A stretch of DNA of 64,000 nucleotides, from the NCBI GenBank assembly GCA_902596585.1, contig CACJUL010000001.1, positions 16,659 through 80,658 of the forward strand, read 5' to 3'. The notes beneath the pieces are model-generated. The model saw nothing but the letters and a program-made list of their open reading frames with translations. It was not told the origin of the DNA and did not search any database. Numbering within the stretch: the first letter of the stretch is position 1; each line of letters opens with the position of its first letter. This stretch comes from an uncultured Prochlorococcus sp. Lineage in GTDB: Bacteria > Cyanobacteriota > Cyanobacteriia > PCC-6307 > Cyanobiaceae. Made by a program: the position numbers and the translations under genes. Positions 40,144 to 40,446 of this stretch are shown here, piece after piece.

Positions 40144-40159
40144 GGAGAGGGAGGGATTC
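40144..40159 (-). repeat. 16-bp duplicate of the tRNA-Ser 3' end (att-like direct repeat)
   Basis: ggagagggagggattc at 40144-40159 is identical to 40359-40374. The match continues as (a)gaa with a 1-nt insertion. Confidence 0.9.
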
Positions 40160-40166
40160 AGAATGA

Positions 40167-40358
40167 ATCTTAAAAGGACTTCATGACACAGATGGGGACA
40201 TAGCATTTATATTTTTGAATCTACTAAACAACAATCCCAACAACATAGATAAAAAATATATGGCATATATGGGTATCCAAGACACTATGATTTGTCGATT
40301 TTCATTTGATACAAAGAGATTTGGGCCTGTATATTACTTCCTGAAACCGAATAATTAC
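40167..40358 (+). pseudogene. Probable fragment of a foreign gene, possibly a LAGLIDADG-like endonuclease domain
   Basis: 64 stop-free codons filling the insert: ILKGLHDTDGDIAFIFLNLLNNNPNNIDKKYMAYMGIQDTMICRFSFDTKRFGPVYYFLKPNNY. Confidence 0.35.
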
Positions 40359-40446
40359 GGAGAGGGAGGGATTCGAACCCTCGACAAAAGTTACCTCCTG
40401 TAACTCCTTAGCAGGGAGCCGCTTTCAACCACTCAGCCACCTCTCC
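40358..40446 (-). tRNA. tRNA-Ser (anticodon GCT)
   Basis: Reverse complement GGAGAGGTGGCTGAGTGGTTGAAAGCGGCTCCCTGCTAAGGAGTT...GAGGGTTCGAATCCCTCCCTCTCCG; long variable arm, G73 discriminator. Confidence 0.97.

What the first reader, a model, noticed from the sequence alone, without database searches (positions are those of the whole stretch)
40144..40374. Micro-island at tRNA-Ser(GCT): att-like duplication bracketing about 200 bp of foreign DNA
Seen: an exact 16-bp GC-rich repeat of the tRNA 3' end (T-loop to acceptor stem), 215 bp from the tRNA copy and on the tRNA's downstream side, in otherwise pure core genome with no integrase nearby. Established: tRNA-targeting integrases of phages, satellites and Prochlorococcus tycheposons leave such partial-tRNA repeats. 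Inference: the residue of a collapsed element, or a small DNA piece integrated in trans. A repeat / captured fragment / repeat unit at a tRNA could mark the birth of an island, or serve as a record of invaders if strains carry different inserts or tandem units. tRNA read-through would transcribe the insert antisense to its open frame.
Basis: partly seen in the sequence, partly recalled or inferred. Interest (0 to 1): 0.7.

Follow-up and report, generated by a model that had tools for sequence, protein, structure and literature searches.

The report
Collapsed mobile element scar at tRNA-Ser
The 215-bp insert beside tRNA-Ser(GCU) is what remains of a roughly 9.7-kb integrase-carrying mobile element after all its genes were deleted, and similar scars of 215-220 bp recur at this tRNA in other Prochlorococcus genomes.

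Summary
GGAGAGGGAGGGATTC occurs exactly twice in the window, at 40144-40159 and at 40359-40374 inside tRNA-Ser(GCU), 215 bp apart. No shuffle of the window reproduced this.

The interval between the HAD hydrolase gene, tRNA-Ser(GCU) and alr is an integration hotspot. Of 26 informative same-genus genomes, 15 have an empty site and 11 carry inserts of 0.9-8.3 kb. Some inserts encode an AlpA-like excisionase, a P4-type tyrosine integrase and a small resolvase, which is the tycheposon-like gene set.

One complete relative (G097) carries a 9.7-kb element. Its left 102 nt (87% identity) and right 155 nt (93%) together make up the window's insert. The two alignments overlap on AACAACAATCCCAACAACA. 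The CCAACAACA motif occurs only in the two arms of the full element, so the genes were probably deleted by recombination between these arm repeats.

A marine-metagenome contig spans the whole unit, which argues against an assembly or MDA chimera. The open frame in the insert is not conserved.

Ten of 285 genus genomes carry two cores 120-400 bp apart. Eight units measure 215-220 bp, and seven share the same geometry although their arm sequences differ.

I read this as a non-coding scar the size of an attP site, comparable to a CIME. It is a new variant of a known kind. Mobilisation in trans is not excluded.

The parts
39320..40108 (+). HAD-family hydrolase gene, the conserved flank on the distal side of the integration site
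   Evidence: Pfam PF00702, 1.5e-06. Its 3' end plus the intergenic flank is conserved next to the tRNA core in relatives with an empty site.
40144..40159 (-). Distal att core: a displaced copy of the last 16 nt of tRNA-Ser(GCU) before the discriminator, joined to the native host flank
   Evidence: Exact 16-mer. Relatives with a filled site show the same junction of host flank, AC, GGAGAGGGAG and element left end, with 10-16 nt of tRNA identity.
40160..40226 (+). Left (distal) arm of the collapsed element
   Evidence: Window 40144-40245 aligns to L083:980-1081, the left end of the 9.7-kb G097 element, at 89/102 (87%). The arm alone is 55/67 (82%). In the full element this region lies just upstream of the AlpA-like excisionase domain.
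40227..40245 (+). Collapse junction: AACAACAATCCCAACAACA, a tandem arm repeat with a 12-nt period
   Evidence: The left-end and right-end alignments to the G097 element overlap exactly here. CCAACAACA occurs 6 times in the G097 locus, all in the element's two arms, against 0.10 expected. It occurs 5 of 5 times in the arms of the G028 element. In a metagenome contig of the full-length form, similarity to the window breaks at 40227 (X6 record 23).
40246..40358 (+). Right (tRNA-proximal) arm of the collapsed element, ending in CTTCCTGAAACCGAATAATTAC
   Evidence: Window 40227-40379 aligns to L083:10524-10678 at 144/155 (93%). The arm alone is 92% identical to G097 and 80% to G300. The terminal block is conserved in the G097, G087, G125, G028 and G032 elements.
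40359..40374 (-). Proximal att core: the 3' end of the intact tRNA-Ser(GCU)
   Evidence: Exact 16-mer inside the tRNA.
40357..40447 (-). tRNA-Ser(GCU), the integration target (attB at its 3' end)
   Evidence: ARAGORN, anticodon gct. Rfam tRNA, 62.9 bits.
40508..41707 (-). Alanine racemase gene, the conserved flank on the tRNA side
   Evidence: Pfam Ala_racemase_N 4.7e-61 and Ala_racemase_C 2e-38. It is syntenic in relatives.

Best explanation
The 215-bp unit is the non-coding scar of a tycheposon-like integrative element that had inserted into the 3' end of tRNA-Ser(GCU). A tyrosine integrase recombined an attP core identical to the last 16 nt of the tRNA with the tRNA gene. This rebuilt the tRNA at the proximal junction and left the displaced tRNA end at the distal junction next to the HAD gene. 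Later the whole interior was lost, about 9.4 kb in the closest intact relative, including the excisionase, integrase, resolvase and cargo genes. The deletion ran between tandem CCAACAACA repeats that sit in direct orientation in both arms. I infer that these repeats are the arm-type binding sites of the integrase. What remains is distal core, left arm, one repeat pair, right arm and proximal core, which is an integrated copy of the attP region alone. It encodes nothing and leaves the tRNA intact. It keeps two core sites at which later elements can land. The same kind of collapse has happened in several element families at this tRNA. Shown: the homology to both ends of an intact element, the junction inside the shared repeat, the polymorphism of the site, and the presence of the unit in nature. 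Inferred: the order of events, the deletion mechanism, and the role of the repeats as integrase arm sites.
For: The repeat is real and non-random. The site is polymorphic. Fifteen same-genus genomes are empty, with a single core abutting the native flank. Eleven carry inserts of 0.9-8.3 kb, each bounded by flank+AC+GGAGAGGGAG on one side and by an element end plus the full tRNA on the other. Elements at this site in G032, G028, G036 and G097 encode an AlpA-like excisionase, a 426-434 aa tyrosine integrase and a small resolvase. The integrase matches Arm-DNA-bind_3 and Phage_integrase in Pfam, and phrog_1 integrase at 7e-37. The catalytic-type residues R, HxxR, H and Y are invariant in an 8-member alignment. 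The G097 element (L083:980-10672) supplies both halves of the window's insert, at 87% over 102 nt on the left and 93% over 155 nt on the right. The two alignments overlap on 40227-40245. CCAACAACA is confined to the arms of the full-length elements. Metagenome contigs give independent support: X1 record 5 (354 nt) covers 40021-40374 with 6 mismatches and no gap. X6 record 23 shows the full-length form, with similarity breaking at 40227 and a right arm-core-left arm junction. The collapse is recurrent. Ten of 285 genus genomes have two cores 120-400 bp apart, and eight units are 215-220 bp. Seven of these, including the window's, place a 12-nt-period tandem repeat about 79-84 nt from the distal core, leaving 113-119 nt to the proximal core, despite different arm sequences (the window's repeat was placed). 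The G197 unit equals the left 102 nt (96%) and right 152 nt (86%) of another family, and these alignments overlap on TTTTATCCCCTATTTTATCCCCT.
Against: No intact parent element is known in this genome's own lineage, so the deletion event itself is inferred from a relative whose alr gene is 86% identical. The mechanism of deletion is not tested. It could be homologous recombination, replication slippage or a recombinase-assisted event. Whether the CCAACAACA repeats bind the integrase is inferred only from their position, orientation and periodicity. The data cannot tell a deletion in the chromosome from integration of an already shortened circle.
Confidence: 0.82

Rival explanations
1. The unit is a non-autonomous, attP-only mini-element. 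On this reading it was integrated, or is still mobilised, as a circle of about 215 bp by an integrase and excisionase supplied in trans by a related full-length element. It would not be a deletion that happened in place.
For: It retains both cores, with a perfect 16/16 distal core, and both arms. Units of 215-220 bp with the same geometry occur in several arm families and are about as frequent as integrase-bearing elements of this clade: 10 of 285 genomes against 8 of 285 with at least 44% identity. The G148 and G279 units are 88% identical, while third codon positions of the adjacent HAD gene are 74% identical. A right arm-core-left arm junction of the full-length form exists in a metagenome, so circles or tandems of this family do form.
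Against: No mini-circle junction was seen, and no identical mini was found in a divergent host background. The nearest other mini of this family (G087) is only 71-73% identical and has a decayed distal core. No cognate integrase was found in this genome, although it is only 72% complete. Uniform size follows just as well from deletion between arm repeats that sit at conserved distances from the core. Pattern scans of metagenome and viral contig collections found no further copies.
Confidence: 0.13
2. The repeat is the target-site duplication of a miniature transposon (MITE-like) that happened to land beside the tRNA.
For: The insert is short, non-coding and flanked by a direct repeat.
Against: The repeat is always the tRNA 3' end and is shared by many unrelated inserts at exactly this position, with 10-16 nt of identity. 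Full-length relatives encode a tyrosine integrase and excisionase, not a transposase. No terminal inverted repeat was reported for the insert.
Confidence: 0.01
3. The duplication is an assembly or MDA chimera of the single-cell genome.
For: The genome is a fragmented, 72%-complete assembly of 54 contigs.
Against: A contig from an independent marine metagenome spans the HAD end, the distal core, the whole insert and the proximal core with 6 mismatches in 354 nt. Contigs from two further studies span the distal junction. Homologous units exist in other genomes, including a closed one.
Confidence: 0.01
4. The insert carries a small protein-coding gene, the open frame 40167-40403 with a LAGLIDADG-like start, as noted by another first-stage reading.
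For: The + frame from 40167 is open for about 78 codons.
Against: There is no Pfam match even at E = 10. The frame runs into the tRNA gene. The homologous frame is stopped after 27 codons in G097 and carries stops in G087. A 1-nt indel separates the window and G097 in the right arm. The region is homologous to the non-coding ends of the full element.
Confidence: 0.01

Closest known systems
Tycheposons of Prochlorococcus (Hackl et al., bioRxiv 10.1101/2020.12.28.424599)
   Same: They integrate at the 3' end of a tRNA and are flanked by the full tRNA and a partial tRNA copy. They carry a tyrosine recombinase, an excisionase and a small serine recombinase as hallmark genes. Tandem elements are separated by partial tRNAs, and the paper mentions 'remnants of degenerated elements' and extra partial tRNAs. 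All of these features are seen at this locus in relatives.
   Different: The window's unit has no gene at all. The target, tRNA-Ser(GCU), is not among the seven island tRNAs named in that preprint, which lists Ser(TGA). No replication module was detected in the intact G097 relative. I did not find there a size-constrained class of attP-only scars of about 215-220 bp, nor their junction in arm repeats.
CIMEs, the cis-mobilisable elements of streptococcal ICE/IME systems (reviewed in PMC5704250)
   Same: [quoted passage not shown] CIMEs sit at the 3' end of target genes, including tRNA genes, and incoming elements add on beside them. The window's unit keeps both att copies, and relatives show a mini plus an element in tandem.
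   Different: CIMEs derive from conjugative or mobilisable elements and usually still carry kilobases of cargo. Here the remnant is reduced to the att arms alone, in a host with no known conjugation. Cis-mobilisation has not been tested.
Lambda/P4-type attP organisation (core flanked by arm-type integrase sites; from general knowledge of lambda Int, not tested here)
   Same: A short core is shared with the target. Tandem direct repeats lie in both arms within about 100-200 nt of the core. The integrase has an N-terminal arm-binding domain (Pfam Arm-DNA-bind_3 in the G032 homologue). The total size of about 215 bp is close to the roughly 240 bp known for lambda attP.
   Different: Binding of the repeats by the integrase is not demonstrated. 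The unit is the integrated, circularly permuted form of an attP region, not a free attP.

Membership tests
Tycheposon / tRNA-targeting integrative element | Flanked by the full-length target tRNA on one side and a partial copy of its 3' end on the other | tested here: met
   16-nt exact copies at 40144-40159 and 40359-40374. The proximal copy lies inside tRNA-Ser(GCU).
Tycheposon / tRNA-targeting integrative element | Encodes its own site-specific integrase (a tRNA-associated tyrosine recombinase or a large serine recombinase) | tested here: not met
   The 199-bp insert has no gene. The cognate integrase family was not found in the assembly, which is 72% complete. The intact relative in G097 does encode one.
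Tycheposon / tRNA-targeting integrative element | Replication module (primase, helicase or polymerase) and/or cargo genes | tested here: not met
   None in the window's unit. In the G097 relative, Pfam and PHROGs gave no replication-protein match for the remaining ORFs.
Tycheposon / tRNA-targeting integrative element | Presence/absence polymorphism at the same tRNA among strains | tested here: met
   15 sites empty and 11 filled among 26 informative same-genus genomes.
CIME-like decayed element (attL and attR kept, recombination genes lost) | Lacks integrase and excisionase genes | tested here: met
   No conserved ORF and no Pfam match.
CIME-like decayed element (attL and attR kept, recombination genes lost) | Retains both att sites of the parent element | tested here: met
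   Both cores and both arms align to the ends of the G097 element.
CIME-like decayed element (attL and attR kept, recombination genes lost) | Can be excised or moved together with an incoming element that supplies the recombinase | not testable with these tools
   There are only indirect hints. A mini lies in tandem with elements in G197, G144 and G148, and two minis lie in tandem in G132.
MITE / transposon | Terminal inverted repeats and a target-site duplication that differs between copies | tested here: not met
   No terminal inverted repeat was reported. The duplication is always the tRNA 3' end.
LAGLIDADG homing endonuclease gene | A conserved open reading frame with the family's domain | tested here: not met
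   No Pfam match at E up to 10. The frame is broken in homologous copies.

The most novel reading that the evidence does not exclude
The 215-220 bp units could be a maintained class of non-autonomous, attP-only mini-elements of Prochlorococcus. On this reading they are excised and re-integrated in trans by tycheposon integrases. They would serve as extra landing pads and as recombination points where elements swap arms, seeding and reshaping genomic islands.
Probability: 0.13. Interest if true: 0.7.

Novelty: new variant of a known kind. Interest (0 to 1): 0.45.

Why it matters
The locus shows how tRNA-targeting elements of Prochlorococcus can end. The genes are lost between arm repeats and a scar the size of an attP site remains. 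Different strains keep scars of different element families at the same tRNA, so the site is a readable record of past integrations.

It also adds tRNA-Ser(GCU) as an integration hotspot beside the seven island tRNAs named in the tycheposon preprint.

There is a practical side. The scars delimit a candidate minimal attP of about 215 bp, a 10-16 nt core and the repeats that may bind the integrase, and the cognate integrase and excisionase genes are available in relatives. That is the parts list for a site-specific integration tool in an organism that has been hard to manipulate genetically.

Tried and rejected
- **Coding reading of the insert.** The open frame 40167-40403 with its LAGLIDADG-like start has no Pfam match, and the frame is broken in G097 and G087.
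- **Structured RNA.** Rfam at E up to 1 on 39900-40600 gave only the tRNA and a sub-threshold hit on its antisense strand.
- **Promoter and terminator scan.** One promoter-like site at 40306-40335 against 3.2 expected, and no terminator. This is not informative.
- **Cognate integrase in the window's genome.** Not found with the G097 protein. PF00589 finds only a 445-aa ORF beside tRNA-Gly(GCC) on another contig. The genome is 72% complete, so absence is not shown.
- **Collection scans.** Two mini-specific patterns in metagenome contigs and one in viral contigs gave 0 hits. An attP-junction pattern, a right-arm-plus-core pattern and the G097 integrase in viral contigs also gave 0 hits. The single-protein scan of genome contigs found nothing. 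The alignment-based scan did.
- **One collapse event or two for G000 and G087.** The alr tree places them near each other among genomes with empty sites, but it is poorly resolved. Each mini is closer to the G097 full-length arms than to the other mini. This stays unresolved.
- **Flank comparison.** One search used an aligner setting that inflated flank identities. I replaced it with codon-position identities. The G087 HAD gene has an indel, so its ungapped values there are meaningless.
- **Metagenome depth.** Depths were not used to estimate the frequency of the variant. No contig joining across the insert (an empty-site form on this backbone) was reported, which shows nothing either way.

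Full report
**1. The observation**

The 16-mer GGAGAGGGAGGGATTC lies at 40144-40159 and at 40359-40374, 215 bp apart. With the flanking TTA[A/C] the repeat reaches 19 of 20. With up to two mismatches these are the only copies in the window, and none of 100 shuffles gave two matches.

The second copy is the 3' end of tRNA-Ser, anticodon GCU, on the minus strand (ARAGORN; Rfam, 62.9 bits). The first copy lies downstream of the tRNA, 35 nt past the stop of a HAD-hydrolase gene. On the other side of the tRNA lies alanine racemase.

In the whole assembly (window = G000:C1:16659-80658) the exact 16-mer occurs only here. Two one-mismatch copies are the ends of other tRNA-Ser genes.

**2. The locus is an integration hotspot**

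I searched 36 genomes of the same genus with window 39900-40700. In 15 of them the match to the HAD end and the match to the tRNA/alr side overlap by about 23 bp. That is an empty site with a single core. Seven of these were read directly. In 11 genomes the two matches are 0.9-8.3 kb apart. The remaining genomes were split across contigs or lacked the region.

Every filled site has the same junctions. On the HAD side the order is native flank, AC, GGAGAGGGAG and then element-specific sequence, with tRNA identity running 10-16 nt. On the tRNA side, an element end of the type CTTCCTGAAACCGAATAATyAC abuts the complete tRNA.

This is the pattern expected from site-specific recombination between an attP core and the tRNA 3' end. 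G028 and G097 carry tandem units separated by such partial tRNA copies.

**3. What the full-size inserts encode**

The elements in G032, G028, G036 and G097 encode three recombination proteins next to the distal core:
- an AlpA-like excisionase;
- a tyrosine integrase of 426-434 aa;
- a small resolvase-type serine recombinase.

The integrase matches Pfam Phage_integrase and, in G032, Arm-DNA-bind_3. The G097 protein matches phrog_1 integrase at 7e-37. The integrases are 56% and 37% identical between variants. R, HxxR, H and Y residues are invariant in an eight-member alignment.

Other inserts carry only cargo, for example a carbamoyltransferase.

An alignment-based scan names the relatives as Prochlorococcus single-cell genomes: AG-442-M23, AG-347-K19, AG-347-K16, AG-355-B18, AG-402-K16 and others. 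It also finds two Synechococcus strains. Every locus shows a tRNA-Ser-type 10-mer (GGAGAGGGAG or a one-mismatch variant) upstream of the integrase, at about 0.5 kb in most.

The gene set and the tRNA-flanked architecture match the tycheposons described by Hackl et al. That preprint also reports tandem elements separated by partial tRNAs and 'remnants of degenerated elements'. It lists seven island tRNAs, including Ser(TGA) but not Ser(GCU).

**4. What the 215-bp unit is**

I searched 285 genomes of the genus with the insert alone. In the closed genome G097, insert positions 1-86 and 68-199 match two places about 9.5 kb apart. Direct alignment gives two results:
- Window 40144-40245 equals the left end of a 9.7-kb element (L083:980-1081), 89/102 or 87%.
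- Window 40227-40379 equals its right end plus the tRNA (L083:10524-10678), 144/155 or 93%.

The two alignments overlap on 40227-40245, AACAACAATCCCAACAACA.

In all three full-length members of this family (G097, G028, G032), a tandem CCCAACAACAwTmCCAACAACA lies in both arms in the same orientation. CCAACAACA occurs six times in the G097 locus, all within about 100 nt (left) or 200 nt (right) of the element's cores. It is absent from the 9.3-kb interior, against 0.10 expected. The G028 element gives five of five in the arms.

The window's insert is therefore the two arms of such an element joined at this shared repeat, with everything between them missing.

Their position flanking the core, direct orientation and 12-nt period make these repeats the likely arm-type binding sites of an integrase that has an arm-binding domain. 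That reading is an inference.

**5. It is real and it is not a gene**

Contigs from four independent marine metagenome studies were laid on 39800-40700.
- X1 record 5 (354 nt) covers 40021-40374 with six mismatches and no gap. It therefore spans the HAD end, the distal core, the whole insert and the proximal core.
- X6 record 22 and X9 record 30 span the distal junction.
- X6 record 23 (583 nt) is the full-length form. Its similarity to the window begins at 40227, preceded by sequence like the G097 right-arm interior. After the core at 40374 it continues with AGACTGAATCTTAAAAG, which is the start of the G097 left arm. This right arm-core-left arm junction is what a circular or tandem form would show.

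The + frame 40167-40403 is open, and another first-stage note read it as LAGLIDADG-like. It has no Pfam match at E up to 10. It runs into the tRNA. It is stopped in the homologous sequence of G097 and G087, and a 1-nt indel separates the window from G097.

**6. The collapse is recurrent**

G087, a closed genome, has a 204-bp unit of the same family. It is 71-73% identical to the window's unit. Its distal core has decayed to 11/16, and its junction lies in the same repeat, reading CCCAACAAAACAG. In G300 a right arm alone survives between the HAD gene and another element.

A pattern search for two cores 120-400 bp apart hit 10 of 285 genomes. The units measure:
- 215, 216, 218 (four genomes), 219 and 220 bp;
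- 132 and 177 bp in two further genomes;
- in G132, a 129-bp unit lies in tandem with the 216-bp one.

The units have different arm sequences. Even so, seven of the 215-220 bp units carry a tandem repeat with a 12-nt period that starts about 79-84 nt from the distal core, leaving 113-119 nt to the proximal core. For the window I placed the repeat, because the script chose another repeat there. The G132 unit was not analysed.

The G197 unit equals the left 102 nt (96%) and the right 152 nt (86%) of another element family. These alignments overlap on TTTTATCCCCTATTTTATCCCCT. The integrase-bearing G209 member of that family has the motif in both arms.

Deletion between arm repeats that sit at conserved distances from the core explains the uniform, attP-like size.

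**7. What remains open**

Whether the deletion happened in the chromosome or in an excised circle that then re-integrated cannot be decided from these data. The window's genome lacks a detectable cognate integrase, but it is only 72% complete. Homologues with at least 44% identity occur in only 8 of 285 genomes.

The window's unit is 88% identical overall to the G097 arms. Third codon positions of the neighbouring HAD gene are about 73-79% identical among these genomes. That fits a more recent shared element, but it also fits constraint on the full-length arms. The G148 and G279 minis are 88% identical against 74% at third positions, which is a weak hint of spread. The alr tree does not resolve whether the G000 and G087 minis share one origin.

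**8. Comparison with known systems and verdict**

[quoted passage not shown] Here it is reduced to the att arms alone.

It derives from a tycheposon-like element, but it fails the membership features that require an integrase, a replication module or cargo. It is not a MITE and not a gene.

I rate it a new variant of a known kind. The recurrence, the constant geometry, the junction in arm repeats and the tRNA-Ser(GCU) target are the new points. Decay of such elements in general is already reported.

Noticed in passing
G000 contig C4:45958-46666 (outside the window): This is a second small tRNA-flanked unit in the same genome. The last 22 nt of tRNA-Phe(GAA) (GGTGCCAGGACCCAGATTTGAA) recur 687 bp downstream. 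The interval holds one open frame of about 156 codons (stop to stop, C4:46104-46571). It also carries TTCCATACCACTTCCATAC repeats near both ends, which is the same arm-repeat layout.
   Followed up: partly
G000 contig C30 (L087:751-2088), outside the window: A 445-aa ORF with a sub-threshold Phage_integrase match (23 bits) lies directly after tRNA-Gly(GCC). It is followed by a 315-aa ORF. It is not related to the tRNA-Ser integrase family.
   Followed up: partly
L111 (G132:C36), oriented coordinates 526-880: Two micro-units of 129 bp and 216 bp lie in tandem between the HAD gene and tRNA-Ser(GCU). Each is bounded by a GGAGAGrGAG core.
   Followed up: no
L104 and L108 (Synechococcus sp. CS-1331 and CS-1330): Integrases 44% and 42% identical to the G097 protein also have AACGGAGAGGGAG about 0.5 kb upstream. 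The tRNA-Ser-targeting clade therefore extends beyond Prochlorococcus.
   Followed up: no
L038 (G033), L113 (G148), L116 (G175): Left and right arms appear in different combinations among elements and minis. For example, the G033 insert pairs a left arm like that of G144/G197 with a right arm like that of G148/G279. This suggests exchange at the shared central repeat.
   Followed up: no
window 40358-40411 (+): Rfam gives a sub-threshold hit to Plastid-psbI-rps4 3'UTR RNA (40 bits, gathering 68). It lies on the antisense strand of tRNA-Ser and most likely reflects tRNA sequence contained in that plastid family.
   Followed up: no
window 41725-42276 (+): A 183-aa HNH endonuclease-domain ORF lies two genes from the tRNA (Pfam HNH_5, 5.9e-15). 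It sits between alr and the next gene.
   Followed up: no
L085 reverse complement 4956-5104 (G300:C18): The end of the HAD gene runs directly into a truncated right arm, then a core, then the left end of a different element. This is a remnant in which the left arm, the distal core and the native intergenic flank are all gone.
   Followed up: partly
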